Shown in pieces: positions 5,721-62,032 of a stretch of DNA of 64,000 nt. The notes under the pieces are model-generated. The model worked only from the letters and a program-made list of their open reading frames with translations. It did not search any database and had not been told where the DNA came from. How positions within the stretch are numbered: the stretch's first letter is position 1; the number at the start of each line of letters is the position of its first letter. A program made the position numbers and the translations under genes. The stretch lies in NCBI GenBank assembly GCA_027459725.1, contig DAIDHK010000001.1, positions 195,411-259,410 of the forward strand, in the 5' to 3' direction. Origin of the DNA: Candidatus Levyibacteriota bacterium. GTDB taxonomy: Bacteria > Patescibacteriota > Microgenomatia > Levybacterales > UBA12049.

Positions 5721-5721
5721 A

Positions 5722-6534: not shown

Positions 6535-6693
6535 ATGTACCCCTTGTGCTAATAATTTTTATCATTTTCAAAAAAAAGACAGCCTCTCGACTATCTGTTG
6601 TTGACGATAGAACCTGAACAAGTATTATACAGTTAGGATTATACTATATATCATTGTTTGGCATCAATATCTATCAAATATAATCTTTTAAGA

Positions 6694-7002
6694 TTACATT
6701 TTAATCTCAACATCAACTCCAGCCGGTAATTCCAAATGAGTAAGACTATCAATAGTTTTGTCAGTAGGAGAAATAATATCAACTAATCTCTTATGCACAC
6801 AGATCTGAAAATGATCTCGGTGATTCTTTTCAACGAAAGGAGCTTTATTGATAGCATAGACGCTGCGCTGAGTGGGAAGTGGAACTGGACCCACAATCTT
6901 GGCACCGGTTCTAATAGCCGTATCTAATATTTGCTGACAACACGCATCAATTACACGTGAGTCATAGCTTTTCAAACGAACACGAATTCTTCCTTTTGGC
7001 AT
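6694..7002 (-). CDS. rpsJ: 30S ribosomal protein S10
   Basis: 102 aa; canonical S10 (IRVRLKSYD...); SD GAAGGAGAA 8 nt upstream. Confidence 0.95.
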   Translation of the reverse strand: MPKGRIRVRLKSYDSRVIDACCQQILDTAIRTGAKIVGPVPLPTQRSVYAINKAPFVEKNHRDHFQICVHKRLVDIISPTDKTIDSLTHLELPAGVDVEIKM

Positions 7003-7048
7003 AGCTTTATTCTCCTTCTTTCAAAGTTCTTACTTAAAGGTAAAAGTA

Positions 7049-7077
7049 ATTATACAATACTGCGCTCAAATTGTCCA
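7049..7077 (-). promoter_or_regulatory. Candidate sigma70-type promoter of the S10 operon (TGGACA-17-tgTATAAT)
   Basis: On minus strand -35 TGGACA (plus 7072..7077), 17-nt spacer, extended -10 TG-TATAAT (plus 7049..7056), about 45 nt upstream of rpsJ ATG. Confidence 0.4.
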
Positions 7078-7141
7078 TAATTAGGAACGCTTAAAAATAA
7101 AAGGTAATACACTGAGCTAAATTTAAAATAAATATGCTAAT

Positions 7142-8092
7142 ATGTTAGCTATGCAGGAGAAAGTTTTTACACCTCTAAAATCCGGTTTCCTGGACGTGAG
7201 TGATGGGTACAAGATTAGATACGCTCAATTTGGCAACCCCCAAGGTAAACCTATTCTTTTTCTTCATGGAGGCCCGGGAGGAGGAGGTTATGAAAGTGAG
7301 ATTTACAATTTGAATTTTTTTGACCTCTCTCAATGGAACATTATAACTTTTGATCAACGAGGAGCAGGTCAAAGTACTCCCTTTGCCAGTGTAGAGAATA
7401 ATACAACTCAAAAAATAATTGAAGATATTGATAAACTCTTAAAATTATTTTCTATTGACAGAATTTTTCTCTATGGTGGTTCCTGGGGGTCAGCGCTTTC
7501 TCTATTTTATGCTATACAAAATCCTCAAAGAATCACCGGCATACTTGTTCGGGGAATTTATTTGGGTTCGAGCAGTGATAATTATCATCTGATCAATGGG
7601 CCTATCAAATACAATTTTCCTGAAAACTGGGAACGTTTTATGAATCTTGTACCTGCAAATCAACAACAAGACGCTCTCTCTTATTATTTAGATAAGATAT
7701 TACATGGAACTGAAAATGAAAAAGATAAATATGCTTATGATTTTGATCTTTATGAATCTGCCTTTTTAACTATGAATCCTACACCAGGAAAGATTGAGAA
7801 AGACATGTCCAATGGAGCGTATCGATCTTTTGCTCCTATTGAGGCAACGTATATGCTCAATTTATGCTTTATGCCTGATAATTATATTTTGAATAATGCC
7901 CATAAACTTTCCAATATCCCAGTAACTATTATTCATGGCCGATATGATTTTATTTGTCCTCCCGCTAACGCATGGAATTTACATAAGACAATACAGAATT
8001 CTAAACTCAAATTTGTTTATGGGGCTCATAGTGCCAGAGAGGATGATATGCAAAAATTAATCACGGATGAATTGTCAATAATGGTAAAATAA
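7142..8092 (+). CDS. pip: Proline iminopeptidase (prolyl aminopeptidase, alpha/beta hydrolase S33 family)
   Basis: 316 aa; LHGGPGGGG oxyanion region and GGSWGS nucleophile motif characteristic of prolyl aminopeptidases. Confidence 0.8.
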   Translation: MLAMQEKVFTPLKSGFLDVSDGYKIRYAQFGNPQGKPILFLHGGPGGGGYESEIYNLNFFDLSQWNIITFDQRGAGQSTPFASVENNTTQKIIEDIDKLLKLFSIDRIFLYGGSWGSALSLFYAIQNPQRITGILVRGIYLGSSSDNYHLINGPIKYNFPENWERFMNLVPANQQQDALSYYLDKILHGTENEKDKYAYDFDLYESAFLTMNPTPGKIEKDMSNGAYRSFAPIEATYMLNLCFMPDNYILNNAHKLSNIPVTIIHGRYDFICPPANAWNLHKTIQNSKLKFVYGAHSAREDDMQKLITDELSIMVK

Positions 8093-8610: not shown

Positions 8611-11343
8611 ATGTATATTTTCTTTTATCTCTTATTGACAAGACAGATCTTACTTAGTCATTATAATGATATGAACGAACAGAAGCATGAAAAAGTAAAG
8701 GCAATTTTACCATCCGTTGATTATAATTATTTTATTACTCCAAAACAACTGAAAGTTTTTCTTTTTATATTATTCGCTTTACTCACTCCTTGTATAATTT
8801 TCATGAGTAGTATTTTTGTGTTAACTTATATTCATAGGAATGACTCTATTAATCAGACACTTATCAACCCTGGTATTTTGCCCGATAATCCCCTTTATCC
8901 GGTAAAAATATTTATTGAAGACAATTTTGTCCGCCTATTACCGAAAAATTCAGATAAGCTAAACTTCAATATGCATCTATCCAACGAGCGTCTGGCAGAA
9001 GTTCATAGTTTGCTTATACAGGCAGAAAGTTCCGGTGTTACCTTTAATAACAAACTAAGCTATGTACCTAAGGCATATGCCCAAACCGGGTCTTCAACCA
9101 TGTCAAACAACCAATCAACTGGCCAGTTGCAACAAAAAGCTGATGAGTATTTAACTTTTACTCAACTGCAGCAATATTCTATTCAGAACAATCTCCTGCT
9201 AGCTCGAAAAAACAAGGATTTGACTATTACCTACTGTTTAGAAGATAAACTATCACAAATAAACACAGTTTATTCTAATCTTCAAGCTACTGTAACAAAT
9301 CTTGCGAATGCTAACACTACAAATAATATTAACCTCATAAATCATGATTATATTTTGCTGAATATTAATTTAGATAGTGCTAAAAGAATTGCCCAGATGG
9401 CTGACCAATGTATCGGAAACTATACTGATAATTCACTTGACATAAATAACTCACCCCAAGGCTCTGCTTCAGCGTATCAAAAGATACCTCTGACTCTTAA
9501 TAACTCTGCTAATTCATCTAATTCCACTGCAATTTATACATTTCCTAATCTAACCTACTCACTTTCCATCTCAAAAAACCTTGTTGTTAATATCCCCACT
9601 GCGCTTTCCGACTATTCGCTACTGCAGCAAGAGGCTCAAAGTGAAATAAACAGAATCAACGATACACAATTACTAGCAAGCAATATAACTATGGCCAACA
9701 CTCAACAAAAACTACTTTCAGATGATGTAACAGGAGAAATTTCGAGTATATTCAATGACAAGTCTCCTGTACCACAAGAGGCTTTGGATATTCTGCAACC
9801 TATAGAAGCGAGCATGCTGATTTCTCACGACACCTCTACCCAAGGCATTAATAAACTAGCTCAATATAGCATTCCTATCGCCAGTACTTTCACTGTCAAC
9901 GATATTCATAACCTGTCTAATATTGTACATAACACTCTGTTAGTTCCACAAACGAGCCAAACGGTTCAACAGACCGAAGACTTGATGCAGTTGTATATGA
10001 AAGATGTAACAAACGATACCGCTTTGATTGGAAATCTACCCAATTCAAATAATATAAATAAAACACTAAAAAAACAATTTTTATCGTCCCTGATACTCGT
10101 ACCTGACCAGTTAAAAATTAATGAAACATCTACTCCTGCTATCGCGGCGGTTATCAGTAATATTCTTCCTTTGAATGCTTCATCCTTACAAAACGTTGTC
10201 ACGAGCATAACCGGCTTATCGGTACCAGAAGCAGTAAACTTTTATATTTCTCAAATGAATATAGATAAAAATACCATTAATCAATTTATCGCAGAAAAAC
10301 AATCCTCAGTATATATTATTCCTATTATTTTAAGCTTTAACCAAACAGCAGATGATACTCGAAATATTCTTAAATCAACTAAGACATCTATACCTAACAA
10401 TCAAGGCTATTTAACAAATACAGCTTTGCTAACTTCATCGGTCAATCAAGCTTCTGCAACCGTACAATCTCCCTACTATATAGGCAATTCTACTACTAAC
10501 AACCCTACAACTGGCTCTAACTCAAATACATCCTCTGAATCTTCACCTGCAAATAACAATACAAATAATAACAGCATCAACTCATCAAATAATCAAACGC
10601 TAACCCCTATACCAACAATTATATTAACACAACCCGGTTCAACCTCTACAACTCCTATAACAAACCCTATGCCCACTCCCACACTTATTCCTATTCCTAC
10701 TCAAGCAGCTACAATTCAAATCATTCAGTCTGACAACCCATCAATAGTAAATTATATGCCCTCAACAGCTGACTGTAGTAATAGCAACCCTAATGGTATA
10801 TGTAATAATGGACAAACTTGTCAAAACCTAGGCACGTCGTTTGCTTGTGCATATGCTACATGTACAAATGGCACTTCCTGTCACAATCCTAATAGACATG
10901 GCGCCTATGACTGTGGGGCACAATGTAGTGCAAACGGATCCGAATGTTGTCTCATTCCAAAACAAACTCCCACATCTTCTGCTGCTAATGGACAAGTCTG
11001 TGCTCAGTCATATGGAGGTAACTGTTACAGCTGGGCGACAAATGCCTGCCCATCCGGACATCAAGCAGCTAATCCATCTGATCCTTACGTTGATTGCCGC
11101 ACTGAGAAAAACGCTCCTCACCCCGATTACTGTTGCATTACTACTTCTCAACCGGCATCCAGCGTACAGTCAAACTCTCAATCCAATCAATCATATAACT
11201 CTAATACACAAAACAATGGCAGCATTAATACTAATACTGCTAACAATAACAGCTATAATACCAGTAGTACTAATGCCACAACTTACAATTCAAATAATAA
11301 TAACTCAAGCAATGGATTGAATATAACAGCCAATGGAAATTAA
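8611..11343 (+). CDS. Large (910 aa) membrane-anchored/secreted surface protein; N/S/T/Q-rich with Cys-rich C-terminal module and N-terminal GILPDNPLY (DUF5667-like) motif
   Basis: N-terminal TM/signal anchor, GILPDNPLYPVK motif shared with ORF 61466..62032, long low-complexity Asn/Ser/Thr tracts, about 30 Cys clustered in residues 720-830. Confidence 0.6.
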   Translation: MYIFFYLLLTRQILLSHYNDMNEQKHEKVKAILPSVDYNYFITPKQLKVFLFILFALLTPCIIFMSSIFVLTYIHRNDSINQTLINPGILPDNPLYPVKIFIEDNFVRLLPKNSDKLNFNMHLSNERLAEVHSLLIQAESSGVTFNNKLSYVPKAYAQTGSSTMSNNQSTGQLQQKADEYLTFTQLQQYSIQNNLLLARKNKDLTITYCLEDKLSQINTVYSNLQATVTNLANANTTNNINLINHDYILLNINLDSAKRIAQMADQCIGNYTDNSLDINNSPQGSASAYQKIPLTLNNSANSSNSTAIYTFPNLTYSLSISKNLVVNIPTALSDYSLLQQEAQSEINRINDTQLLASNITMANTQQKLLSDDVTGEISSIFNDKSPVPQEALDILQPIEASMLISHDTSTQGINKLAQYSIPIASTFTVNDIHNLSNIVHNTLLVPQTSQTVQQTEDLMQLYMKDVTNDTALIGNLPNSNNINKTLKKQFLSSLILVPDQLKINETSTPAIAAVISNILPLNASSLQNVVTSITGLSVPEAVNFYISQMNIDKNTINQFIAEKQSSVYIIPIILSFNQTADDTRNILKSTKTSIPNNQGYLTNTALLTSSVNQASATVQSPYYIGNSTTNNPTTGSNSNTSSESSPANNNTNNNSINSSNNQTLTPIPTIILTQPGSTSTTPITNPMPTPTLIPIPTQAATIQIIQSDNPSIVNYMPSTADCSNSNPNGICNNGQTCQNLGTSFACAYATCTNGTSCHNPNRHGAYDCGAQCSANGSECCLIPKQTPTSSAANGQVCAQSYGGNCYSWATNACPSGHQAANPSDPYVDCRTEKNAPHPDYCCITTSQPASSVQSNSQSNQSYNSNTQNNGSINTNTANNNSYNTSSTNATTYNSNNNNSSNGLNITANGN

Positions 11344-52536: not shown

Positions 52537-52680
52537 TTACTTCACCTCCTTTCTTAAAAGTACACAGTCTGTGTTACAAAGCAATAATATGTAGTTATCC
52601 TGAGAAACAAACCAAAATCTTGTAGCAAAAATGTAAGAAGCGGGTGTTATTCTGAAAATTAAATAGTTTAGGAGAATTTG

Positions 52681-52753
52681 TGCGTCTGGGAGGACTCGGA
52701 CCTCCGACGTGATGTGTATAAGACATCTGTTCTAGCCGCTGAACTACAGACGC
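52681..52753 (-). tRNA. tRNA-Ile with anticodon UAU (reads AUA)
   Basis: Clean cloverleaf on minus strand: 7-bp acceptor stem (GCGUCUG/CAGACGC), 4-bp D stem, 5-bp anticodon stem with loop CUUAUAC (U33, anticodon UAU, A37), 5-nt variable loop, 5-bp T stem, discriminator A73, no encoded CCA; T-loop UCCGAGU has C at position 55. Confidence 0.7.
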
Positions 52754-52797: not shown

Positions 52798-55182
52798 TTA
52801 CAACTTAGCTCTTTGTGAAATCTCTGACTCTACAATTTTTACATCTCTACCAAATTTCAAACGGGACAATTCTTTTACTAATTCTGCAACTCTAGCATTT
52901 TTCATTTTGTCCTCTTGAGAAGTATCTTTGGTTAAATCTAAAGAAAAAGGCGGAACCGGTTCTCCATCAACACCTGTTCTTATATAGGCATTAAAGCGAT
53001 CAATATTAATTAAGTCAGCTTCTGTAAATGTCGGAGTAAATTCGTGTTGTAGATAGTTAGCATCAGTTACTCCAACACGAAAAGAAACAATCGTTCCCAC
53101 ATTTCCAAAAATAGCATTTTTAATTTCTTCATCCATCTGTCCAATAAACTGATTGGCAACAATCAAATTAAGTTTATATTTTCTCGCTTCTGATAAAATT
53201 TGCGCAAAATCAGGTGTGGCAAAGTTTTGAAACTCATCAACGTATAAATAAAAATCTTTACGCTGCTCTTTGGGTATATCCTGACGACTCATGGCGGCAA
53301 CTAGAATTTTAGGTACAATAATTAAGCCTAAAAAACTAGAATTTTCTTCACCGATCCTACCTTTTGAAAGATTAATTAATAAGATCTTTCTGTTATCCAT
53401 AACGTCTCTAAACTGAAATGCGCTATATGATTGACCAATAATGTTACGGATCATTTTGTTAGTAACAAAACGTCCGAATTTGGAAGTAATATAATCCAAT
53501 ACTTCAGACTTATGAAAGTCACTTGTCTGGGCAATCTGATCTGTCCAATAACGTCTAACAATTGGATCATCCACTTTAGGTAACAATTCCTGTACAAAAG
53601 CTGGATCTGTTAACACACGCATAACTTCAATAAACGTATTCCCAGGCTCAGACATAACCGTTAACATAGCATTACGTACGGCATGCTCAAAACGCGGGCC
53701 AATAATACCTGTTTTGTTAGGATCAAAAAGCTTATACATTAAACCGATAATCGACGTTACTACCATATGCTTCTGGTCCTCAGATTGTGCTTCCAGCATG
53801 TTCATTCCCATTGGCCTCTCAATATCTGAAGGATCAAATAAAATCACATCTTCTGCCCGCTGCGGTGGAATAAGCTGTAAAATATCCTCTACTAAATCTC
53901 CATGAGGATCTACCACCGCCAACCCTTCTCCTGCTCGAATATCCTGCATAATCATCTCTTTCAAAAATTCAGATTTTCCTGTACCTGTCTTACCTATAAT
54001 ATACATATGTCGCTGGCGGTCAAATTTACTCATATATACTGGTCTGCTAATACCCCTAAAGATGCTCTTACCGATGAATAAACCATTTGATGGCAAGTTA
54101 GACGGGGCTGGTGCTCTTTTTGAGTTAACCCAATGTATACCAGGTGTTGCAACCCCTTTATTGGGGAAATGAAAAATTGTTGCAAGCTCTTCGCTAGTTA
54201 AAACAGATGTATGATCCCATAGTGGCCAATAACGATAGACGAAATCCGTAATAAAAGCACCCTTCATACGAATTTTAAGTTTTTTAAACTCATTCGATCC
54301 GCCATACTGACTAAAACCATTAATTATATTAGAGAGATGCATATTTGCAGCCTCAGTAGAACTTGAAGAAACAACAACCCTAATAGTAGTATCAAAACCT
54401 GGTTTGGATATCTTATTTTCAATACCCTCCAGCTCCTTACTGTCGACTGAATATTTCGCAGTTTCCGGATTTGACTCACTTTTTTTGGTTTTAGCAATAT
54501 ACGCTTTGCCTTGCGACTTCCAATGTTTATCGGCAGGACTTATCAGAATTTGAACAGCTATACCTTCCCCTTCTCCCATCTTGGCTAGTGTGGATGTAAT
54601 AGAGGCCATGGGATCAACAGGAAAATCTTTAAATACTTTAATTGGATAATAAGAAGCAGATTTTAATTTTAAGGAAGCGTATGCAACTTTTCCTGTTTCC
54701 GAAAAAATATTATATTCCCCACCCAGAATAGAATCGGTTCTCTGATGTGCAGCCGAGTCTCCAACCTCGACAATCAGAGCATCCGGATAAGAACCATTAA
54801 TTTGCTTCTCTACGAAGTCACGAATTTTATTTGGAACATGAATATAATAGCGAATATCTCCGGGCATACCGACTATTTCAAACGAGAGATGTGGTTGGGG
54901 ATGCAAAAAATGGAATCTTCCACCCTTTTTTATAGCAGCCAAGCTGGAAAACAACTGTTCGGCAGCATCAATTTTGATCTCATTATCACGTGGTACAGCT
55001 ACCTGAAGTAAAGTTGAATTCAGAGCATCCTCTTCACGATGTCTATACTTATACCACAAAAAAAATATATACCCCACGAGAGCCAATAAAGCAAAAAAAA
55101 TTAAGAAACCTGCAGCAAATAACACCAGACCTATTAATAGTCCTGTCGGATCTCCAGCCAAAAATGAACTTACCACATCCAT
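52798..55182 (-). CDS. Membrane-anchored VirD4/TraG/TraD-like coupling-protein-family ATPase with a long N-terminal extra domain
   Basis: N-terminal TM; Walker A IIGKTGTGKSEF followed by VVDPHGDL (T4CP DPKGE-like); Walker B YLYVDEFQNF and C-terminal ...KLNLIVANQFIGQM...GNVGTIVSFRV resembling the TraG-D_C region. Confidence 0.5.
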   Translation of the reverse strand: MDVVSSFLAGDPTGLLIGLVLFAAGFLIFFALLALVGYIFFLWYKYRHREEDALNSTLLQVAVPRDNEIKIDAAEQLFSSLAAIKKGGRFHFLHPQPHLSFEIVGMPGDIRYYIHVPNKIRDFVEKQINGSYPDALIVEVGDSAAHQRTDSILGGEYNIFSETGKVAYASLKLKSASYYPIKVFKDFPVDPMASITSTLAKMGEGEGIAVQILISPADKHWKSQGKAYIAKTKKSESNPETAKYSVDSKELEGIENKISKPGFDTTIRVVVSSSSTEAANMHLSNIINGFSQYGGSNEFKKLKIRMKGAFITDFVYRYWPLWDHTSVLTSEELATIFHFPNKGVATPGIHWVNSKRAPAPSNLPSNGLFIGKSIFRGISRPVYMSKFDRQRHMYIIGKTGTGKSEFLKEMIMQDIRAGEGLAVVDPHGDLVEDILQLIPPQRAEDVILFDPSDIERPMGMNMLEAQSEDQKHMVVTSIIGLMYKLFDPNKTGIIGPRFEHAVRNAMLTVMSEPGNTFIEVMRVLTDPAFVQELLPKVDDPIVRRYWTDQIAQTSDFHKSEVLDYITSKFGRFVTNKMIRNIIGQSYSAFQFRDVMDNRKILLINLSKGRIGEENSSFLGLIIVPKILVAAMSRQDIPKEQRKDFYLYVDEFQNFATPDFAQILSEARKYKLNLIVANQFIGQMDEEIKNAIFGNVGTIVSFRVGVTDANYLQHEFTPTFTEADLINIDRFNAYIRTGVDGEPVPPFSLDLTKDTSQEDKMKNARVAELVKELSRLKFGRDVKIVESEISQRAKL

Positions 55183-55189
55183 AATTAAG

Positions 55190-55816
55190 TTATGCCGCTT
55201 TTTCTACTAACGCTAACTTCGACTCCTCCTTTTTACGTAGTTCCTTTATATGAAGTTTATGCAAGATAGATAAAACAAGTACAGCAAGCCAATGCTTAGA
55301 TTCATCCGGAGAAGTAGTTTTTATTATATCAGCAGCCTCATTGCCTGTAAATGGTTGTTGAGGAAACTTCATGCTTGCTGCAATATGAGAATTCATAGGT
55401 ACAGATTCTTTAGCAGGTTCCAATCCGGCTAATTCTTGAGAAGCAGACAATTTTAACTGTTCGTCATCTTTGGATTCTTCAACTCCAATCTCCTTTAATT
55501 CTGCACTTATTTCAGGCTGACTTTCGCTAGCTTCTGAAACATGCATAGCTTCATTAGACCGTATGGGCGTTTGTTCTTTGTGAAGCGAACTAACGGGATG
55601 ATAGGATTGAGAAGATTTAGTTTGAACTTCGCTATTATTCAACTGTTGAATGCGATCGTCCTGACTAATAGTTGCCATAGTTGGTGATGAGCTGGAATGG
55701 TCTTGCATTACATTCACCTGTGTACCAACGGTACCAGGCTGCACTGTTGATTGATCATCAGCTGTTAACTGCGCTAAGGGTTGAGAATTTGAATTCTGTT
55801 GTATACTATCATCCAT
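55190..55816 (-). CDS. Acidic, Ser/Gln/Glu-rich low-complexity protein with C-terminal amphipathic/hydrophobic helix
   Basis: 208 aa; predicted disordered; C-terminal HWLAVLVLSILHKLHI; 8 nt upstream of the ATPase gene. Confidence 0.5.
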   Translation of the reverse strand: MDDSIQQNSNSQPLAQLTADDQSTVQPGTVGTQVNVMQDHSSSSPTMATISQDDRIQQLNNSEVQTKSSQSYHPVSSLHKEQTPIRSNEAMHVSEASESQPEISAELKEIGVEESKDDEQLKLSASQELAGLEPAKESVPMNSHIAASMKFPQQPFTGNEAADIIKTTSPDESKHWLAVLVLSILHKLHIKELRKKEESKLALVEKAA

Positions 55817-55867: not shown

Positions 55868-57052
55868 TTAACATGCGTATTCTGTAGAACCTTTACAGGA
55901 AGGACAATGTATTTTCCCACCCTTTATAATTGCATCTACGTCTTTTGCCTTACAAAGAGGACATTCATTACATTTTAATGTTCTTTCACCACTTAAGGAG
56001 GATGCCATTCCGCCTGGAACATAACCAAAAGCCATTTTTGCCTGCTCATCGCCAAAACCAACTCCTGCGCCACAACTTCCTCCAGCCGATGCCACATTAG
56101 TTAAAAAACCTGAGCCAATTTTATTTTTAGACAATGTTTTGCTTAATGACTGTTGGATATTTTGGGCATATTGCTTAAAGTAATTAGTAATAAATGCTTG
56201 AGACATTTGAGGATCGTTTAATAACAACATCTGAAAAATTCGTTCCAACATCCACTCATTATCTTGCAAAATCTTCTCGAATTCTTTAACTTTTGTCTCA
56301 TCCCCCATGTCGGCACCTGATTTGTTCTCCAATTGTTTTATTTTTGCTTCAATATCACGAGGAGATAAACCATAATTAACTTTTATTAGCGTAGATAAAA
56401 GTTCTAACGAAGAAGGAGTGTCTGTAAATATTTTCTTACCTACTAAATCTTCCAGTAATTCTTTTTGCACGTTATTCTCTAAATTATTTTTAACATCCCT
56501 ACCTTTTAAAACTTTAACGACTTTTGATTTACCACCCTCATTCAAAACTAATTCATCCACCTCATAAACATGCGTCATCGTATAGCCCCCATATATTTCT
56601 CCATTTAATCCTTCATTTTCCGGAGGAGGACTTGTCCAAATAAAAACATCCCCTTTGCGGGATTGGGATAAAGGTTCAGAGAATTTTTTAGTCACTTCAT
56701 GTTCCACAAGCCTTCTTTTTTTTTCATATTCTGGCACATCTTGTTCTAATGCTTTTTGAGATGCGTCATCAGCATAGCCAAATGACGGATGATATAAACG
56801 CGTATTTCCATTATCATTTACAATATGCCATAGATAATGAGTTGTCTGTATGCCGCCTATATATTCTTTCGCCCAATATTGTGCGTTTTGCATGAATCCA
56901 TCTCTGGCTAACTTTATTTGTCTTTCATCTTTGGAACCCATCGCTTCTAACGCGCGATCTCTTTCATGTGATAAGTTAAAAGACAAATGATTAGTGCTTT
57001 TAATTTCAGAGGTAGATGGTAGGGGTCGTTTTGCTTCAATTGTTTGTAGCAT
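55868..57052 (-). CDS. Hypothetical protein with C-terminal double CxxC zinc ribbon
   Basis: 394 aa; C-terminus CNECPLCKAKDVDAIIKGGKIHCPSCKGSTEYAC and Gly-rich GGSCGAGVGFGDE segment; start 4 nt after pduO stop. Confidence 0.5.
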   Translation of the reverse strand: MLQTIEAKRPLPSTSEIKSTNHLSFNLSHERDRALEAMGSKDERQIKLARDGFMQNAQYWAKEYIGGIQTTHYLWHIVNDNGNTRLYHPSFGYADDASQKALEQDVPEYEKKRRLVEHEVTKKFSEPLSQSRKGDVFIWTSPPPENEGLNGEIYGGYTMTHVYEVDELVLNEGGKSKVVKVLKGRDVKNNLENNVQKELLEDLVGKKIFTDTPSSLELLSTLIKVNYGLSPRDIEAKIKQLENKSGADMGDETKVKEFEKILQDNEWMLERIFQMLLLNDPQMSQAFITNYFKQYAQNIQQSLSKTLSKNKIGSGFLTNVASAGGSCGAGVGFGDEQAKMAFGYVPGGMASSLSGERTLKCNECPLCKAKDVDAIIKGGKIHCPSCKGSTEYAC

Positions 57053-57055
57053 ATA

Positions 57056-57613
57056 TTATAATCTCCAAATCTTTTCTCTTTGTTTTTCAATATGATTTAC
57101 AAATCTTGCAGCAGTAAATAAAAAATCTGATAGGCGATTGAAATAACTGATAATTAAATCCTCTATCTCCTCAGTCTGTTTAAGTTCTACAATTCTTCTT
57201 TCTGCTCTACGGCAGATTGTGCGAGCTAAGTGTAGTTGTGCACCTGCTAAACCACCTCCTGGTAAAATAAAATTTTTTAATTCAGGTAATTGCTCTGTTA
57301 TATCATCAATTACTTTTTCAAATTGTTTAATTCGCTTTTCTAACTGTGGTAAGGAAGGATTCTGCGGATTAGCCAAGGTCGACCCAATGGTAAATAAATC
57401 ATTTTGCACTTGCTCCAACTTACCAATTATTTCCATCATATTGTTATTGGATTTGGTTTTACTACCCACACTAATTGCTATACCTATTACAGAATTTAAC
57501 TCGTCTACTGTGCCATATGTCTCAACTCGTAAATCAAACTTATTTACTCTCTTGCCTCCAAACAATGATGTTTTGCCTTTATCACCAGTCTTAGTATAAA
57601 TTTTATTTTTCAT
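57056..57613 (-). CDS. pduO: ATP:cob(I)alamin adenosyltransferase, PduO type
   Basis: IYTKTGDKGKTSLFGGKRV...RVETYGTVDELNSVIG N-terminal signature of PduO/MMAB family; 185 aa. Confidence 0.85.
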   Translation of the reverse strand: MKNKIYTKTGDKGKTSLFGGKRVNKFDLRVETYGTVDELNSVIGIAISVGSKTKSNNNMMEIIGKLEQVQNDLFTIGSTLANPQNPSLPQLEKRIKQFEKVIDDITEQLPELKNFILPGGGLAGAQLHLARTICRRAERRIVELKQTEEIEDLIISYFNRLSDFLFTAARFVNHIEKQREKIWRL

Positions 57614-58178
57614 GACTATTTTCCTCTGGGTTAATACTTAGATATATGCGTTGTTTAAACCAGGGTTTAATTACTAATTCATAACTGCTAAAAAATAATC
57701 CTATGTATAGTAGATATCCCATAATTGTATTGCGGAAAAAAGGTAAGGCTAAAATATAACAATTAAATAGCCCACTTAGTGTATGCGGATAAAAACTGGT
57801 GGTTAACCAGACACCAAAATTAGTAATAATGAAAAATTGTAAAGACGATAATAAAGTTATACCGACAATATTAGCCTTTGTTTTATATCTTCTAATCCAT
57901 AGCCCTAATAAACCCGTAATCAAAAAACTCCCATAAACAAATGGCATTTGCCAATAAAAACCCAAAAAAATATCAGAAATAAATAAACCAATTAATGGAA
58001 GTGATAATGCATACTTTTTATTTAGATAGACTCCTGAGAACAACATTATTGCGGTAAGAGGAGACATGTTTGGAGGATGCGGTAGAAGCCTGGCTATTAC
58101 TACTAATATAATTAGTATAAATGAATTAACTATTTTATTTTTATCTATTAATTTCTTTGCTCGAAGTAATTTCTCCAT
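57603..58178 (-). CDS. Small polytopic membrane protein, candidate cobalamin ECF-type S component / B12 uptake protein
   Basis: About 190 aa with about 6 TM when started at internal ATG 58178 (MEKLLRAKK..., SD GGAGG 7 nt upstream); sandwiched between B12-dependent nrdJ and pduO and preceded by a cobalamin-riboswitch-like leader. Confidence 0.4.
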   Translation of the reverse strand: MEKLLRAKKLIDKNKIVNSFILIILVVIARLLPHPPNMSPLTAIMLFSGVYLNKKYALSLPLIGLFISDIFLGFYWQMPFVYGSFLITGLLGLWIRRYKTKANIVGITLLSSLQFFIITNFGVWLTTSFYPHTLSGLFNCYILALPFFRNTIMGYLLYIGLFFSSYELVIKPWFKQRIYLSINPEENSHEK

Positions 58179-58179
58179 A

Positions 58180-58320
58180 AAAAACCCTCCTAAGCGAGGG
58201 TTTTTGTCGATGCATAAACAAATTCCTGCTCGGGATAATATAAAACTATCTAGTTTTCTGTCTGTAACAGTAGCGGCACTGATGAGGATTTTCACCTCTA
58301 TTACCTAGATGTTTTTTAAT
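58180..58320 (-). promoter_or_regulatory. Candidate cobalamin riboswitch with SD-sequestering terminator hairpin
   Basis: Minus-strand leader contains GGTGAAAATCC (exact match to the most conserved cobalamin-riboswitch segment) followed by GCCGCTACTGTTA (B12-box GCCGCCACTGTAA-like) and ends in CCCTC-gcttag-GAGGG-TTTTTT, which pairs the SD and precedes a U-tract. Confidence 0.4.
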
Positions 58321-58327
58321 TTTAATG

Positions 58328-60778
58328 CTAACACTCACTATAGCCACAGCTATAGCATTTTTTGCAACCTTCTTCGTAAGCAAAACTGTATGTTTGGCAT
58401 TCCGGACACATATCAAACAAATTAGTCGTACTATGTTCCATTTTTACTGGTGTATCCGAAGTTAAACTAAGTTGCTGCGCAGAAGCTGCAACCGGCATAT
58501 CCACAGGCTGAGTAACTGAAGAACTAGCATGTCCATTAGTCAGACCGGTCGCTGCCAAGATTGGCTCAGCTTTCACAGCAGCAATCACTTCTTTATCTTC
58601 TACTTTACCATTAACTCTAAATTCAAAATGTCGAGCCAGAATTTTTGCCACTGCATCCGGCAACGAACGTACACGATTAGGACCAAAACCTACGGTACGC
58701 GCCCCTCCAATGCCAGTTAATTCAGATACTATCTCACGCACACGTTCACGCTGGGGAACTGGACTATGAATACGCAAGTTAAAAGAAATCATACGACCTA
58801 ATGCATCAGCCATGGCTGACACATCTGATCCAGATTTACCGTTGCTTATAAATACCTCAAATGGCTCATTCTTTTCATCGTGATTAATCGTTATATATGT
58901 ATTACCAACAGGACTCTGCGTTTTGTATGTCGTACCCATCAGCATCATAGGACGAGGAACTCTTGGTGTAGCAGGAATAGCTGGTTTAACTTCTTCTTTC
59001 TTCTCTTCTTTTTTATCTTCAATCCTCTCCAACACTCCCTGTCTGGATCCATCACGCATATAAGTAATACCTTTTAAACCCATATCATACGCCAGCATAT
59101 AAAGCGTTTTAACATCGTCTACGGTATGTGTCTTAGGAGCATTAACAGTCTTAGATATACTCGAATCAATATACTCCTGAGCTACTGCCTGTACTTTAGC
59201 ATGTTCTAATGGAGTCAAATCATTGGCACTGCAGAAATAATCAGGTTTGGCAGCAACGGGGTGATTTTTAATCCAGGCATCATAAAGAGGATGATACATA
59301 ACTTCCTCTCCACCTCTCCATTTGCGTAAAAAGGAAAATTCATAGACGGGCTCAATACCGGAGGACACACCTGCCACTAAACTGGTAGTACCAGTGGGAG
59401 CCACTGTTAATAAAACACCATTACGAATTCCTTGCTCACGAATCTTATCACGTAACTTCTTGGGTAAAGCCTTAATAAAATAACCCTGCAAATATTTCTC
59501 TTTATCAAATTTAGGGAAACTCCCCTTCTCAGCTGCAATATCACTTGATGCCTCATATGCACTATCTCGCAACGTCTGGAATATTTTCTCAACTACTGAA
59601 ATTGATTCTTCTGAGCCATAACGGACATGCATTTTAATTAATGCATCTCCCAAACCCATGATCCCCAACCCAGTTCTGCGTATATCCTTAGCTACTTTTT
59701 CATTCTCTGAGAAAAAATAATGAGTCTGCTCAATTACGTTATCCATAAAACGCATTGCTACCTTAACATCCTGGGCAAACTCTTTATAGTCAAACCAGCC
59801 AGCTTTTTCATTGGCTAAATCTGCATCTTTAACATAAGCTGATAAATTCATGGCTCCTAAATTACACACCGCCCAACCACTCAATGGCTGTTCTCCACAT
59901 GGATTAGTAGCTACTAATCTTTCAAAATACCAGGTATTCGAACGTTTATTTGATCTCTCTAAAAAATGCAAACCTGGCTCGGCAGATCTCCAAGCTGCTG
60001 TACAAATCAAATCCCATAAGTCACGCGCCTTGACTGTCTTATAAACTTTTAATTCTTTCCCTAAGGACTTCCACTGATCTAATTCTCCATTCCATTTGTC
60101 ATCGTAATCTGAATCGCTAGTATCAGGATAAACCAAATTCCAGTCTCTATCAGCTTTAACCGCTTCCATAAAAGCATCAGATACACAAACGGAAAGGTTA
60201 GCACCACTAATTTTGGTTAGATCTTCTTTAACTGTAATGAATTCCTCAATGTCCGGATGCCAGTCATTCAACATTAACATTGTTGCACCTCTTCGTGACC
60301 CTCCTTGTTGTACAATATCATGAGTAGCAACTGAGAATAGAGTAGCCCAATTGACTGGACCGGAAGAAGTACCATTTACCTTCTTAACCCTGGCACCCTT
60401 GGGACGAAGGGAAGAAAGATTAAGTCCCACCCCTCCTGAGCGAGCTTGAATTTCAACCAATTGCCCCAGAGATTCTAAAATCCCATGACGGGAATCTTTC
60501 GGAGAGGGAATAACAAAACAATTGAAGTAAGTAACTTGGAAACCAGTACCTGCACCTGATAAAATACGCCCACCGGGAACGAACTTGAAGTCTGACATAA
60601 CATTATAAAATTCTTCTTCCCAGTGCTCACGATCTTTAGCCTTTTCACTTTGGGAAATTCCTCTAGCCACTCTCCTCCATGTTTCTTCTGGGGTATGTTC
60701 TATTAAATTACCCTCCTTATCCTTCAGAGCGTAACGGTCTAAAAATACTTTTCCTCTAATTCCATCAAGTTTCACCAT
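58328..60778 (-). CDS. nrdJ: Adenosylcobalamin-dependent (class II) ribonucleotide reductase with C-terminal zinc-ribbon tail
   Basis: 816 aa; RNR ten-stranded barrel motifs (NPCGEQPL active-site Cys loop), no class I radical-subunit partner nearby; C-terminal CPECQ...CKKCYSCGYSEC. Confidence 0.9.
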   Translation of the reverse strand: MVKLDGIRGKVFLDRYALKDKEGNLIEHTPEETWRRVARGISQSEKAKDREHWEEEFYNVMSDFKFVPGGRILSGAGTGFQVTYFNCFVIPSPKDSRHGILESLGQLVEIQARSGGVGLNLSSLRPKGARVKKVNGTSSGPVNWATLFSVATHDIVQQGGSRRGATMLMLNDWHPDIEEFITVKEDLTKISGANLSVCVSDAFMEAVKADRDWNLVYPDTSDSDYDDKWNGELDQWKSLGKELKVYKTVKARDLWDLICTAAWRSAEPGLHFLERSNKRSNTWYFERLVATNPCGEQPLSGWAVCNLGAMNLSAYVKDADLANEKAGWFDYKEFAQDVKVAMRFMDNVIEQTHYFFSENEKVAKDIRRTGLGIMGLGDALIKMHVRYGSEESISVVEKIFQTLRDSAYEASSDIAAEKGSFPKFDKEKYLQGYFIKALPKKLRDKIREQGIRNGVLLTVAPTGTTSLVAGVSSGIEPVYEFSFLRKWRGGEEVMYHPLYDAWIKNHPVAAKPDYFCSANDLTPLEHAKVQAVAQEYIDSSISKTVNAPKTHTVDDVKTLYMLAYDMGLKGITYMRDGSRQGVLERIEDKKEEKKEEVKPAIPATPRVPRPMMLMGTTYKTQSPVGNTYITINHDEKNEPFEVFISNGKSGSDVSAMADALGRMISFNLRIHSPVPQRERVREIVSELTGIGGARTVGFGPNRVRSLPDAVAKILARHFEFRVNGKVEDKEVIAAVKAEPILAATGLTNGHASSSVTQPVDMPVAASAQQLSLTSDTPVKMEHSTTNLFDMCPECQTYSFAYEEGCKKCYSCGYSEC

Positions 60779-60779
60779 A

Positions 60780-61274
60780 TTATTTATCTTTTTTATTTAA
60801 TCTGTTTCTTTTATTAAATACTTGTAGTTCTTTTTCAAAATCTTCCGCATCTACAAAACGTTTAAATACACTAGCAAATCGAATATAAGCCACCTTATCC
60901 AGCGCTTTAAGACGTTTCGCAACTAATTTGCCAATCAATCTGCTATCTATCTCAACAGTGTCTCCATTCCTTAATTCTCTTGTTACCTCTGCTACTAATT
61001 TATTTATCTCTTCAACACCAATTGTCGTTTTTCCACAAGCCTTAATGATTCCTGAGCGTAGTTTTTCAATATTATATGGCTCTTTCTTCCCATCTCTCTT
61101 GATTACAGTTAAATGAACATTCTCAACTCTTTCGTAACTGGTATATCTTTTTTCACATTGTAGACAAAGTCTTCTGCGTCTAATAGTATCGTTGTCTTCA
61201 TTATCCCTGGTTTCAATCACCTCAGATTTAGTATGTCCGCAATATGGGCAATGCATAAAGAATTTAGAACTCAA
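60780..61274 (-). CDS. nrdR: Transcriptional repressor NrdR (zinc ribbon + ATP-cone)
   Basis: MHCPYCGH...RRRRLCLQCEKRYTSYERVE N-terminal signature; 164 aa; 1 nt upstream of nrdJ. Confidence 0.9.
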   Translation of the reverse strand: MSSKFFMHCPYCGHTKSEVIETRDNEDNDTIRRRRLCLQCEKRYTSYERVENVHLTVIKRDGKKEPYNIEKLRSGIIKACGKTTIGVEEINKLVAEVTRELRNGDTVEIDSRLIGKLVAKRLKALDKVAYIRFASVFKRFVDAEDFEKELQVFNKRNRLNKKDK

Positions 61275-61465: not shown

Positions 61466-62032
61466 CTATTTAGTTAATGAACTAGCCTGTCGAATAAGTT
61501 GCACAACATTCTGTTCTAGAATTTTCAATTCCTGTTGCTGTGAAGATGGAACTAAATTATCTAAGCTATGCAGGACTTCTTCGTGTTTTCTAGTTGCCAA
61601 GTTAAGATTCCTTATTACCTCGCTAGTATCCTCATGCTGAGACCTAGCGACTTGGACTTTTGACAATGCATCGCTCATATAATTCTCCCCTTTAGAAATT
61701 GTTGACAGTGCAAGTACCGCATTGTTTTTGTTTTCCTGTAATAAAAACACACCCATCTGCAATCTTTTATTGGCCATTAAGAGATCAAATTGAGTTTTTT
61801 TTAAAGGATCAGAGATCATCCAACTGTAAATATTGTCGCGTAGAGTTTTTAAAAAATATAATGGATTGTCAGGTAGAATACCCGGGTATGGCAAAGTATA
61901 ATTAACAGGAGTTGGAGATGGAGTCATAACAGCTGGAAGAGATACAACCACTGAGGGAGTTTGTGCAAAAACATTTTGATTCGAAACAAAAACTAATACA
62001 AACAAGGAGATAACTAAGCCAAGATATTTCAT
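61466..62032 (-). CDS. Secreted DUF5667-like protein
   Basis: Signal peptide; PYPGILPDNPLYFLK motif shared with the 910-aa surface protein; helical C-terminus. Confidence 0.5.
   Translation of the reverse strand: MKYLGLVISLFVLVFVSNQNVFAQTPSVVVSLPAVMTPSPTPVNYTLPYPGILPDNPLYFLKTLRDNIYSWMISDPLKKTQFDLLMANKRLQMGVFLLQENKNNAVLALSTISKGENYMSDALSKVQVARSQHEDTSEVIRNLNLATRKHEEVLHSLDNLVPSSQQQELKILEQNVVQLIRQASSLTK

What the first reader, a model, noticed from the sequence alone, without database searches (positions are those of the whole stretch)
57056..61274. Coenzyme-B12 module: nrdR - class II nrdJ - candidate cobalamin riboswitch - ECF-S-like membrane protein - pduO
The only RNR in the window is the adenosylcobalamin-dependent class II enzyme, with NrdR upstream. 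Directly after its stop, the 150-nt spacer (minus strand) contains GGTGAAAATCC and GCCGCTACTGTTA, matching the conserved core and B12-box of cobalamin riboswitches. It ends in a hairpin that pairs the SD (CCCTC/GAGGG) followed by U6, a plausible ligand-controlled expression platform. The regulated gene encodes an approximately 190-aa 6-TM protein of the size and topology of ECF S components (CbrT/BtuM-like). A PduO-type adenosyltransferase that makes AdoCbl follows. Together this would be a self-contained B12 salvage-for-DNA-synthesis unit. Neither the riboswitch nor the transporter would be found by protein-based annotation.
Basis: partly seen in the sequence, partly recalled or inferred. Interest (0 to 1): 0.6.

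Follow-up and report, generated by a model that had tools for sequence, protein, structure and literature searches.

The report
B12 riboswitch-controlled cobalamin salvage operon
A vitamin-B12-sensing RNA switch sits directly behind a B12-dependent DNA-precursor enzyme gene and controls a likely B12 uptake protein, the enzyme that activates B12, and one more protein of unknown function; this is a small-genome bacterium's version of a gene cluster already known from lactobacilli.

Summary

- **Riboswitch.** Window 58243-58322 (minus strand) is a class-II cobalamin riboswitch. It matches Rfam RF01689 at 53.4 bits against a gathering score of 36.5, and covariation in 22 relatives supports the fold.
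- **Expression platform.** The aptamer starts 5 nt after the nrdJ stop. A conserved P13/L13 hairpin follows, then a hairpin that buries the Shine-Dalgarno sequence, then U6 abutting the ATG.
- **Membrane protein.** The regulated 191-aa protein belongs to DUF6580 (PF20221). It has the ECF S-component fold and is a remote homologue of CbrT, the proven B12 S-component (hhalign 96.9%, E 2e-10).
- **Family-wide link to B12.** Of 80 DUF6580 loci from many phyla, 61 carry a cobalamin riboswitch on the same strand.
- **Known counterpart.** Lactobacilli have nrdJ-cbrS(DUF4430)-cbrT-pduO. Patescibacterial relatives have nrdR-nrdJ-riboswitch-DUF4430-DUF6580-pduO. The window lacks DUF4430.

- It is not BtuM.
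- DUF6580 lacks the helix-1 AxxxA motif used for ECF docking (0 of 38), and no ABC ATPase lies nearby. Dependence on an ECF module is therefore open.
- The operon extends to a 394-aa protein from a fast-evolving family with no annotation. In relatives that gene has its own B12 riboswitch.

Overall this is a new variant of a known kind, of moderate interest.

The parts
60780..61274 (-). nrdR (ATP-cone plus zinc-ribbon repressor of RNR genes); first gene of the cluster
   Evidence: TIGR00244 173 bits against cutoff 125; PF22811 and PF03477. The Pfam match starts at residue 7, so the start could be the TTG at 61274 or the ATG at 61256.
58328..60778 (-). nrdJ, class II (adenosylcobalamin-dependent) ribonucleotide reductase with a C-terminal TSCPD domain
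   Evidence: TIGR02504 NrdJ_Z 590 bits against 400; PF02867, PF00317, PF12637. It overlaps the nrdR stop by 0-1 nt. No nrdB-sized partner gene in the window.
58243..58322 (-). Class-II cobalamin riboswitch aptamer (helices P3-P6 plus outer helix); begins 5 nt after the nrdJ stop codon
   Evidence: RF01689 53.4 bits against gathering score 36.5, E 3.3e-10. My own model R1 gives 79.7 bits. On 22 homologous switches 93.8% of cells pair against 32-47% in slid controls, and 11 of 16 pairs show compensatory changes.
58224..58235 (-). P13/L13 regulatory hairpin (UCC-CGAGCA-GGA), the expected kissing-loop partner of L5 (GUGCCGC, 58279-58273); preceded by the 7-nt linker J1/13 (58236-58242)
   Evidence: Present in nearly all 19 class-II switches of relatives. 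The loop CGAGCA is conserved while the stem covaries (UCC/GGA, UUC/GAA, ACC/GGU, CCUU/AAGG). The layout matches the env8 class-II switch, including two unpaired purines in L13 (PMC5028336). The kissing interaction itself is inferred.
58179..58205 (-). Terminator-like, SD-sequestering hairpin AAAAACCCUC-GCUUAG-GAGGGUUUUU with U6 running into the start codon; SD GGAGG at 58186-58190
   Evidence: Predicted in both the MFE and the centroid structure. The closest relative L086 has GUUCUC-GCUUAG-GAGAAC, so the stem is compensated and the loop conserved. The same hairpin-U6-8-AUG layout occurs in at least 11 relatives.
57603..58178 (-). DUF6580 membrane protein, 191 aa; CbrT-like S-component fold; proposed cobalamin uptake protein
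   Evidence: PF20221 E 2.7e-49. AF2 pLDDT 91.4. Foldseek top hits are all ECF S-components. The only PDB sequence hit is CbrT 6FNP_A. hhalign against the CbrT family gives 96.85%, E 2e-10, 175 columns. 61 of 80 family loci carry a cobalamin riboswitch on the same strand.
57056..57613 (-). pduO-type ATP:cob(I)alamin adenosyltransferase; overlaps the DUF6580 gene end by 11 nt
   Evidence: TIGR00636 194 bits against 108; PF01923 E 2.3e-60. It follows DUF6580 in about 24 related loci.
55868..57052 (-). X394: unannotated 394-aa protein with a C-terminal CxxC...CPxC metal-binding ribbon; its ATG lies 3 nt after the pduO stop, so it is in the same riboswitch-controlled operon
   Evidence: Sequence. 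No Pfam, PDB or Foldseek match. Homologues always follow pduO. In 13 relatives the homologous gene starts within about 260 nt of its own class-II cobalamin riboswitch.

Best explanation
This is a cobalamin salvage operon nested behind the genes for the only RNR seen in the window.

nrdR and nrdJ appear to be transcribed first. The class-II cobalamin riboswitch begins 5 nt after the nrdJ stop and decides whether transcription and translation continue into three genes: DUF6580 (a CbrT-related S-component-fold membrane protein that takes up cobalamin), pduO (which makes adenosylcobalamin, the NrdJ cofactor) and X394 (unknown, probably B12-related).

Proposed switch. With enough cobalamin, the ligand locks the L5-L13 kissing loop and so holds the P13 hairpin. 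The downstream hairpin can then form; it buries the SD and, with its U-tract, terminates transcription, so uptake and activation genes are off while nrdJ mRNA is still made. With little cobalamin, the 5' half of P13 pairs with the apex of that hairpin instead, and the three genes are expressed.

Shown: the riboswitch identity and its covariation; the fold of DUF6580 and its homology to CbrT; the family-wide riboswitch association; the operon layout.

Inferred: ligand binding; the direction and mechanism of switching; co-transcription with nrdJ; transport itself and how it is energised.
For: Riboswitch:
- RF01689 above gathering threshold.
- Covariation on 22 homologous switches: 93.8% paired against 32-47% slid, 11 of 16 pairs compensatory.
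- P13/L13 hairpin conserved with stem covariation, matching the published class-II design (PMC5028336).
- In L010, L013 and L068 the 3' strand of P13 is itself the SD, as in env8.

Platform:
- Hairpin plus U6-8 plus AUG recurs in relatives.
- The P13 5' strand is complementary to the hairpin apex: UCCCGAG:CUCGGGA, changing to UUCCGAG:CUCGGAA in L003 and GUCCCGAG:CUCGGGAC in L011.
- Duplex energies are reached by at most 10 of 300 shuffles in 8 of 11 platforms with that hairpin layout (L011 by eye).
- The window hairpin is compensated in L086.

DUF6580:
- PF20221 and S-component fold.
- CbrT is the only PDB sequence hit.
- hhalign 96.85%, E 2e-10. Some CbrT homologues also carry PF20221.
- 61 of 80 loci have a same-strand cobalamin riboswitch.
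- Neighbours are DUF4430 in 32 loci, pduO in about 24, TonB-dependent receptors in 33, and BtuF-like or DUF71 proteins in some.

Known precedent: nrdJ-DUF4430-CbrT-PduO in L. helveticus, with CbrT transport shown experimentally (PMC5997447).
Against: - In the window itself the anti-terminator pairing is weak and interrupted (CGAG:CUCG plus UCC:GGA, -5.5 kcal/mol, matched by 105 of 300 shuffles). The hairpin is stable on its own (-14.2 kcal/mol), so switching here could be leaky or work differently.
- The kissing-loop pairs between L5 and L13 number only about 3 and show no covariation in my set.
- No promoter could be assigned, so co-transcription with nrdJ rests on the 5-nt gap alone.
- The Foldseek E-values for the fold are weak (about 0.4) despite probabilities of 0.96-0.99.
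- No direct evidence that DUF6580 binds or moves B12.
- The window lacks the DUF4430 partner found in most relatives.
- The ligand form cannot be read from the sequence (PMC6158498).
Confidence: 0.75

Rival explanations
1. DUF6580 is an ordinary group-II ECF S-component, exactly like CbrT. It docks onto a shared EcfAA'T module encoded elsewhere in the genome, and transport is ATP-driven.
For: It is homologous to CbrT over its full length. In lactobacilli CbrT is also encoded away from its ECF module, in the same nrdJ/pduO context (PMC5997447). Absence of an adjacent module is therefore expected for group II.
Against: The helix-1 AxxxA motif needed for EcfT docking (PMC11109136) is absent in 0 of 38 DUF6580 sequences, whereas CbrT homologues keep [AG]xxxA in 15 of 16. 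No ABC ATPase lies in the 64-kb window, and 78 of 80 family loci have none within 6 kb. In diderm phyla the gene sits with BtuB and BtuF-like genes rather than ECF genes.
Confidence: 0.35
2. DUF6580 is a solitary S-component that takes up B12 without an ECF module, as proposed for BtuM. It would be helped by a surface binder (DUF4430) in monoderm-like cells, or by BtuB and BtuF in diderms.
For: No AxxxA motif. No neighbouring ABC ATPase. It co-occurs with BtuB, DUF71 and BtuF-like genes but not BtuCD in Ignavibacteria, Bacteroidota and others. There is precedent in BtuM and solitary BioY (PMC6072759, PMC11109136).
Against: Whole genomes could not be examined. There is no sequence relation to BtuM and no conserved cysteine ligand. 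Its nearest characterised relative, CbrT, needs the ECF module.
Confidence: 0.4
3. The hairpin before the ATG acts only on translation (SD occlusion), or is simply the constitutive terminator of nrdR-nrdJ. In that case the riboswitch contributes little in this particular locus.
For: The hairpin is the MFE structure regardless of the aptamer. The window's alternative pairing is no better than shuffles. Class-II switches are classically translational (PMC5028336).
Against: The complete aptamer and P13/L13 are retained with a high score. The hairpin loop GCUUAG and the flanking CUCG are conserved in L086 while the stem changes. Relatives show strong, covarying alternative pairing. A purely constitutive terminator would silence three conserved genes.
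Confidence: 0.2
4. DUF6580 is not a transporter. It could be a membrane-bound cobalamin-processing or sensing protein with an S-component-like fold.
For: The S-component fold also occurs in sensor kinases and MreD (PMC11109136). BtuM has chemistry (decyanation) besides binding (PMC6072759). An invariant His34 in the PHPPN loop could ligate cobalt.
Against: It has full-length homology to a proven transporter. It occupies the CbrT slot next to DUF4430 and pduO in bacteria and archaea. It has no fused signalling or catalytic domain.
Confidence: 0.07

Closest known systems
nrdJ-cbrS-cbrT-pduO cluster of Lactobacillus delbrueckii / L. helveticus (ECF-CbrT vitamin B12 transporter; Rodionov 2009 prediction; Santos et al. 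2018, PMC5997447, PDB 6FNP)
   Same: The gene logic and order are the same: class II RNR, then a B12 S-component-fold membrane protein, then a PduO adenosyltransferase. Relatives of the window also have the DUF4430 (cbrS) gene in the same slot. DUF6580 and CbrT are homologous (hhalign 96.85%, E 2e-10). They share the R..P.PNV.P and S[DN]..LGF motifs.
   Different: - The window protein falls in PF20221, not PF12822.
- It lacks the AxxxA docking motif.
- The window has no DUF4430 gene.
- A class-II riboswitch is inserted between nrdJ and the salvage genes, whereas no Rfam hit occurs in the Lactobacillus locus L081.
- nrdR precedes nrdJ.
- NrdJ here is the NrdJ_Z/TSCPD type rather than the RNR_Alpha/RNR-II_ins_dom type.
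- An extra X394 gene follows pduO.
Class-II cobalamin riboswitches (Rfam RF01689, AdoCbl-variant/AdoCbl-II; env8HyCbl structure, Johnson 2012; Polaski 2016, PMC5028336)
   Same: The aptamer core scores well above threshold. J1/13 is 7 nt, as in env8. There is a P13 hairpin whose loop carries two purines flanked by bases complementary to L5.
   Different: In env8 the ribosome-binding site lies in L13 and control is translational. Here P13 is followed by a separate SD-containing hairpin with a U-tract abutting the ATG, apparently coupled through alternative pairing of the P13 5' strand. The switch also lies inside an operon, 5 nt after a stop codon, rather than in a 5' leader.
BtuM (Thiobacillus denitrificans; solitary S-component-like B12 binder and decyanase, PMC6072759)
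   Same: A small membrane protein of about 20 kDa with the S-component fold. It is genomically linked to B12 uptake genes such as btuB and possibly acts without an ECF module.
   Different: There is no detectable sequence similarity (PDB profile search to E 10 returns only CbrT). No conserved cysteine equivalent to Cys80 exists. The phyletic range differs: Patescibacteria, Bacteroidota, Ignavibacteriota, Omnitrophota and DPANN-like archaea, against mostly proteobacteria.
BtuB-BtuF-BtuCD riboswitch-controlled B12 uptake operons of diderm bacteria
   Same: In Ignavibacteria, Bacteroidota and other loci, DUF6580 sits behind an RF00174 riboswitch together with a TonB-dependent receptor, DUF71 and a BtuF-like binding protein.
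   Different: DUF6580 occupies the place where BtuC/BtuD would be expected. No ABC ATPase is adjacent.

Membership tests
Class-II cobalamin riboswitch (Rfam RF01689 AdoCbl-II) | Covariance-model score at or above the curated gathering score over the full model | tested here: met
   53.4 bits against 36.5, model positions 1-81 of 81, E 3.3e-10.
Class-II cobalamin riboswitch (Rfam RF01689 AdoCbl-II) | Core helices maintained by compensatory changes in homologues | tested here: met
   22 sequences: 93.8% paired against 32-47% when slid; 11 of 16 pairs changed on both sides; no shuffle of 500 reached the score.
Class-II cobalamin riboswitch (Rfam RF01689 AdoCbl-II) | Regulatory hairpin P13 whose loop L13 kisses L5, with two unpaired purines in L13 (PMC5028336) | tested here: inconclusive
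   The hairpin is present and its stem covaries. L13 CGAGCA contains AG flanked by G and CA, which can pair with L5 UGCC. The loop-loop pairs are few and show no covariation.
Class-II cobalamin riboswitch (Rfam RF01689 AdoCbl-II) | Binds a cobalamin and changes expression | not testable with these tools
   Needs in-line probing, ITC and transcription or reporter assays. Class-II members differ in AdoCbl against MeCbl preference (PMC6158498).
ECF transporter S-component, CbrT (B12) family | Six-helix S-component fold | tested here: met
   AF2 pLDDT 91.4. The Foldseek PDB top hits are RibU, FolT, PanT, 4huq_S and ThiT, with probabilities 0.84-0.99 and TM 0.52-0.73. E-values are weak (0.36-1.2).
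ECF transporter S-component, CbrT (B12) family | Sequence homology to CbrT | tested here: met
   CbrT (6FNP_A) is the only PDB hit (E 0.029 single sequence, 0.015 profile). Profile-profile comparison gives 96.85%, E 2e-10 over 175 columns.
ECF transporter S-component, CbrT (B12) family | Match to the Pfam S-component models (PF12822 / PF07155) above cutoff | tested here: not met
   The window protein hits PF20221 (167.9 bits). PF07155 reaches only 17.9 bits against 26.7, and PF12822 is not reported. NCBIfam returns nothing.
ECF transporter S-component, CbrT (B12) family | AxxxA motif in helix 1 for docking onto EcfT (PMC11109136) | tested here: not met
   0 of 38 DUF6580 sequences have AxxxA in the 25 residues before the conserved Arg. 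15 of 16 CbrT homologues have [AGS]xxx[AGS], mostly [AG]LLTA.
ECF transporter S-component, CbrT (B12) family | An EcfA/A'/T module in the same genome | not testable with these tools
   Only 64 kb is available. No Walker-A plus ABC-signature protein occurs in it, and none appears among the annotated large ORFs.
ECF transporter S-component, CbrT (B12) family | Genomic association with nrdJ, cbrS (DUF4430) and pduO | tested here: met
   nrdJ and pduO flank it in the window. DUF4430 is absent from the window but present in 32 related loci and next to CbrT in L. helveticus.
BtuM | Sequence similarity to BtuM and a conserved cysteine (Cys80, loop 3) ligating cobalt (PMC6072759) | tested here: not met
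   No BtuM chain is among the PDB hits up to E 10. The invariant columns of 38 sequences include no Cys; an invariant His34 is present instead.
PduO-type ATP:cob(I)alamin adenosyltransferase | Equivalog-level model match | tested here: met
   TIGR00636 194.1 bits against 108.45; PF01923 E 2.3e-60.
Class II (AdoCbl-dependent) ribonucleotide reductase NrdJ | Equivalog-level model match; no R2 subunit gene | tested here: met
   TIGR02504 590.4 bits against 399.95. The class I model TIGR02506 also passes narrowly (355.9 against 341.05) but scores far lower. No R2-like ORF was found in the window. Linkage to pduO is conserved.

The most novel reading that the evidence does not exclude
Two linked possibilities remain open.

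First, the fast-evolving X394 superfamily may be a so-far unknown cobalamin-handling protein, for example a reductase, decyanase or chaperone that feeds PduO. The family has no Pfam, PDB or fold match, always follows pduO, and has its own class-II riboswitch in 13 relatives.

Second, DUF6580, which lacks the EcfT-docking motif, may work as an ECF-independent B12 importer.

Together they would form a minimal, previously undescribed uptake-to-coenzyme pathway on which DNA synthesis in many Patescibacteria depends.
Probability: 0.3. Interest if true: 0.7.

Novelty: new variant of a known kind. Interest (0 to 1): 0.45.

Why it matters
- It gives a function to a Pfam domain of unknown function. DUF6580 had about 3,000 hits in one search, and no paper in the held library mentions it. 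The link to the proven B12 transporter CbrT rests on three independent lines: profile homology, fold, and riboswitch association in 61 of 80 loci across many phyla.
- It suggests that small-genome Patescibacteria make DNA precursors with a B12-dependent enzyme and depend on scavenged B12. That is a concrete, testable metabolic dependency on neighbouring organisms.
- It shows a class-II riboswitch used inside an operon, so that one transcript yields the B12-using enzyme always and the B12-acquiring genes only when needed.
- It flags one unannotated protein superfamily under B12 riboswitch control as a candidate for missing steps of cobalamin processing.

Tried and rejected
- **Sources not held.** P0001's own contig could not be fetched. 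Rodionov 2009 is not held, so the cbrS = DUF4430 equation rests plus the gene order quoted in PMC5997447.
- **BtuM membership.** Rejected: no sequence hit and no conserved Cys.
- **DUF4430 in the window.** tblastn with five queries found nothing.
- **NrdR boxes.** A search with ACACWATATATWGTGT at up to 3 mismatches gave 3 matches against 1.95 expected, none near nrdR.
- **Promoter scan.** Not above shuffles and no convincing site between nrdJ and the riboswitch. The terminator scan missed the SD hairpin, probably because the A/U extension of the stem consumes the T-run.
- **X394.** Pfam gave only a sub-threshold TCTP hit. PDB sequence and profile searches gave only designed helical proteins and zinc-ribbon ribosomal proteins. 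Foldseek PDB gave TM about 0.1. Ten diverse homologues had no Pfam hit at E 0.1.
- **Anti-terminator in the window.** The P13 5' strand against the hairpin is not better than shuffles (105 of 300). P4 strands as alternative partners were considered and dropped, because P4 is a local hairpin that should form first.

Full report
**1. What is in the sequence**

All genes of the finding lie on the minus strand and are packed tightly.
- nrdR: 60780-61274.
- nrdJ: 58328-60778.
- A 149-nt spacer.
- A membrane-protein gene: 57603-58178.
- pduO: 57056-57613, overlapping the previous gene by 11 nt.
- A 394-aa ORF: 55868-57052, whose ATG lies 3 nt after the pduO stop.

The three annotated enzymes or regulators pass curated equivalog models. 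NrdR scores 173 bits on TIGR00244 against a cutoff of 125. NrdJ scores 590 bits on TIGR02504 against 400 and has a C-terminal TSCPD domain. PduO scores 194 bits on TIGR00636 against 108.

The rest of the window looks like a Patescibacteria-type genome: EF-Tu, EF-G, ClpB, UvrD, GAPDH, PMT_2 glycosyltransferases, DUF2298 and FemAB. It shows no second RNR subunit, no ABC ATPase and no other B12 enzyme among the ORFs examined.

**2. The riboswitch is real**

Rfam cmscan of the whole window at gathering thresholds gives two hits. One is a tRNA. The other is RF01689 (AdoCbl-II, the class-II cobalamin riboswitch) at 58243-58322 on the minus strand, with 53.4 bits against 36.5 and E 3.3e-10 over the full model.

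The same family is found at the same position, directly after nrdJ, in many related loci. I aligned 22 such switches and counted pairs for four core helices.
- 93.8% of cells pair, against 32-47% when partners are slid.
- 11 of 16 pairs carry changes on both sides.
- No shuffle of 500 reaches the covariation score.

A model built from this alignment scores the window element at 79.7 bits. It also finds further copies that Rfam missed at threshold, including in the closest relative L086.

**3. The expression platform**

Downstream of the aptamer, nearly all these switches have a short hairpin with a conserved loop. In the window it is UCC-CGAGCA-GGA at 58224-58235, after a 7-nt linker. Its stem covaries: UCC/GGA, UUC/GAA, ACC/GGU and CCUU/AAGG.

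This is the position and shape of P13/L13 in the class-II env8 switch. There, cobalamin stabilises a kissing loop between L5 and L13 that has two unpaired purines (PMC5028336). L13 here has AG flanked by bases that can pair with L5 UGCC. In three relatives (L010, L013, L068) the 3' strand of P13 is the SD of the next gene, which is the classical translational design.

In the window and at least 11 relatives, a second and stronger hairpin follows. It holds the SD in its 3' strand and runs into U6-8 and then directly into the start codon (58179-58205).
- In the closest relative the stem is compensated (CCCUC/GAGGG becomes GUUCUC/GAGAAC).
- The loop GCUUAG is kept.

In relatives, the 5' strand of P13 plus the start of L13 is complementary to the apex of this hairpin, and the pairing covaries.
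- The common form is UCCCGAG:CUCGGGA.
- It becomes UUCCGAG:CUCGGAA in L003, CUUCCGA:UCGGAAG in L020 and GUCCCGAG:CUCGGGAC in L011.
- Duplex energies are reached by at most 10 of 300 shuffles in 8 of 11 platforms with that hairpin layout (L011 by eye).

I read this as the switch. Ligand-locked P13 leaves the hairpin free to form, giving termination and SD occlusion. Without ligand, the P13 5' strand invades it.

In the window itself this pairing is interrupted and no better than chance (-5.5 kcal/mol; 105 of 300 shuffles), so the mechanism is inferred from relatives.

Because the aptamer begins 5 nt after the nrdJ stop and no promoter stands out, the switch most likely acts on read-through from nrdR-nrdJ.

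**4. The membrane protein**

From the ATG at 58178 the protein is 191 aa. The public record (P0001, 230 aa) starts at a GTG inside the riboswitch.

Evidence on what it is:
- It matches PF20221 (DUF6580) at E 2.7e-49 and nothing in NCBIfam.
- No paper in the held library mentions DUF6580.
- An AlphaFold model from 38 homologues is confident (pLDDT 91.4).
- The best Foldseek matches in the PDB are all ECF S-components: RibU, FolT, PanT, 4huq_S and ThiT. Probabilities reach 0.99 and TM 0.73, although E-values are weak.
- By sequence, the only PDB hit is 6FNP chain A. That chain is CbrT of the L. delbrueckii ECF-CbrT vitamin B12 transporter (PMC5997447).
- A profile-profile comparison of 38 DUF6580 sequences with 27 CbrT homologues gives 96.85% probability and E 2e-10 over 175 columns.
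- Several CbrT homologues themselves carry PF20221 hits.
- Shared motifs are R..P.PNV.P (loop 1) and S[DN]..LGF.

**5. Comparative genomics**

A scan of species-representative genomes returned 80 DUF6580 loci. They come from Patescibacteria, Ignavibacteriota, Bacteroidota, Omnitrophota, Elusimicrobia, proteobacteria and a nanoarchaeon.

Rfam at gathering thresholds finds at least one cobalamin riboswitch in 61 of the 80, always on the strand of the DUF6580 gene. My own model adds a few more.

- **Patescibacteria.** The usual order is nrdR-nrdJ-riboswitch-DUF4430-DUF6580-pduO. DUF4430 is the domain at the C-terminus of transcobalamins (PMC4350170).
- **L. helveticus.** The CbrT gene lies in nrdJ-DUF4430-CbrT-PduO. 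This matches the nrdJ-cbrS-cbrT-pduO cluster described for L. delbrueckii.
- **Other lineages.** The DUF4430 plus CbrT/DUF6580 pair also occurs in a Bacillales genome and in an archaeon.
- **Diderm phyla.** DUF6580 follows an RF00174 riboswitch together with TonB-dependent receptors (33 loci), DUF71 (linked to B12 salvage, PMC3541065), BtuF-like proteins and BtuR.

The window is thus a reduced version of the Patescibacteria order. It has no DUF4430 gene anywhere in its 64 kb.

**6. How is transport energised?**

This could not be settled.
- No ABC ATPase is in the window. Only two, which look unrelated, occur near any of the 80 loci. Group-II S-components normally use a module encoded elsewhere, so this alone decides nothing.
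- The helix-1 AxxxA motif that docks S-components onto EcfT (PMC11109136) is absent from all 38 DUF6580 sequences. CbrT homologues keep [AG]LLTA.
- BtuM, the known solitary B12 S-component, is not related by sequence. Its cysteine ligand has no counterpart here; an invariant His34 is present instead.

I rate solitary and ECF-dependent action as about equally likely.

**7. The extra gene, X394**

X394 has no Pfam, PDB or fold match. Its model is moderate (pLDDT 73). The family is rare, with 93 clusters at E 1e-3 among 1.84 billion representatives.

Its close homologues always follow pduO in nrdR-nrdJ clusters. The proteins at that position in 13 related loci join X394 in one network of transitive phmmer hits. 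Each of those 13 starts within about 260 nt of its own class-II riboswitch.

Conserved features include W.SPPPE, YGGYTM.H.YE, GGSCG.G.GF and a C-terminal CxxC...CPxC ribbon. Its function is unknown. B12 control in every lineage makes a role in cobalamin handling the best guess.

**8. Verdict**

The system is a riboswitch-controlled variant of the known nrdJ-cbrS-cbrT-pduO salvage cluster.

Three things are new:
- the assignment of DUF6580 to the CbrT lineage;
- the intra-operon class-II switch with a coupled terminator;
- the B12-regulated X394 superfamily.

Interest is moderate.

Noticed in passing
window 55868-57052 (-): X394 is a 394-aa protein with no Pfam, PDB or fold match, translationally adjacent to pduO. 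Homologues always follow pduO. In 13 relatives the gene at this position has its own class-II cobalamin riboswitch. The superfamily evolves fast and is linked only by transitive hits.
   Followed up: partly
window 58179-58295 (-); protein P0001: The public 230-aa annotation of the DUF6580 gene starts at a GTG (58295) inside the riboswitch aptamer. Homologue alignment and the SD point to the ATG at 58178 (191 aa). Several relatives have spurious ORFs or N-termini reading '...CAATV...' through the GCCGCTACTGT motif (for example P0244 and ORFs in L001, L013, L045).
   Followed up: yes
L003, L005, L006, L008, L020, L022, L032, L048, L075, L083, L084 (about 7000-7240 in most): Most Patescibacteria relatives carry two class-II riboswitches per cluster, one after nrdJ and one after pduO. 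L007 has two in tandem (4185-4263 and 4327-4420). The window has only the first.
   Followed up: partly
L046 3601-5962; L075 3999-5982: Behind the riboswitch, these loci encode a DUF4430 protein plus a large protein with prenyltransferase/squalene-cyclase-like alpha-alpha toroid repeats; in L046 that large protein also carries a DUF4430 domain. This combination recalls the two-domain build of transcobalamin (my recollection; not tested).
   Followed up: no
L030, L036, L044, L053, L054, L058, L060, L061, L065, L080 (about 5300-6800): In Bacteroidota/Chitinophagaceae loci, the single DUF6580 gene is bracketed by two RF00174 riboswitches. One lies directly upstream. The other lies directly downstream and leads into a TonB-dependent receptor (with DUF5074) operon.
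   Followed up: partly
L018 1580-6537; L070 4926-7493; L074 1385-5155: These are riboswitch-controlled operons with a BtuF-like binding protein, DUF71 and DUF6580 (plus a TonB-dependent receptor in L018 only), but no BtuC/BtuD. A periplasmic binding protein next to an S-component-fold protein is unusual, because ECF systems do not use binding proteins.
   Followed up: no
L013, L022, L073 (nrdJ split by about 1 kb); L084 2509-6075: nrdJ is interrupted by an insertion in several relatives. In L084 the 1188-aa product carries Intein_splicing and LAGLIDADG domains. The window's nrdJ has no intein.
   Followed up: no
window 52798-55816 (-): A low-complexity 208-aa protein and a 794-aa TraG/VirD4/DUF87-like ATPase follow X394. 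They are conserved in this order (68-75% identity for the ATPase) in at least 16 related loci, usually ending at a tRNA gene.
   Followed up: partly
window 52680-52753 (-): A tRNA-Ile gene with anticodon TAT (UAU), an uncommon way for bacteria to read AUA.
   Followed up: partly
window 61466-62032 (-): A DUF5667 protein lies directly upstream of nrdR. The same neighbour is kept in L083-L086. A 910-aa protein at 8611-11343 also carries DUF5667.
   Followed up: no
L003-L006, L010, L020, L032, L040, L046, L048, L073, L075: These records are titled 'uncultured Gammaproteobacteria', yet they carry the Patescibacteria-type cluster at 60-75% protein identity to the window. The taxonomic labels look wrong.
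   Followed up: no
L084 6314-9046 (+) and 11072-13870 (-): One contig holds two copies of riboswitch-pduO-X-phosphoribosyltransferase in opposite orientation.
   Followed up: no
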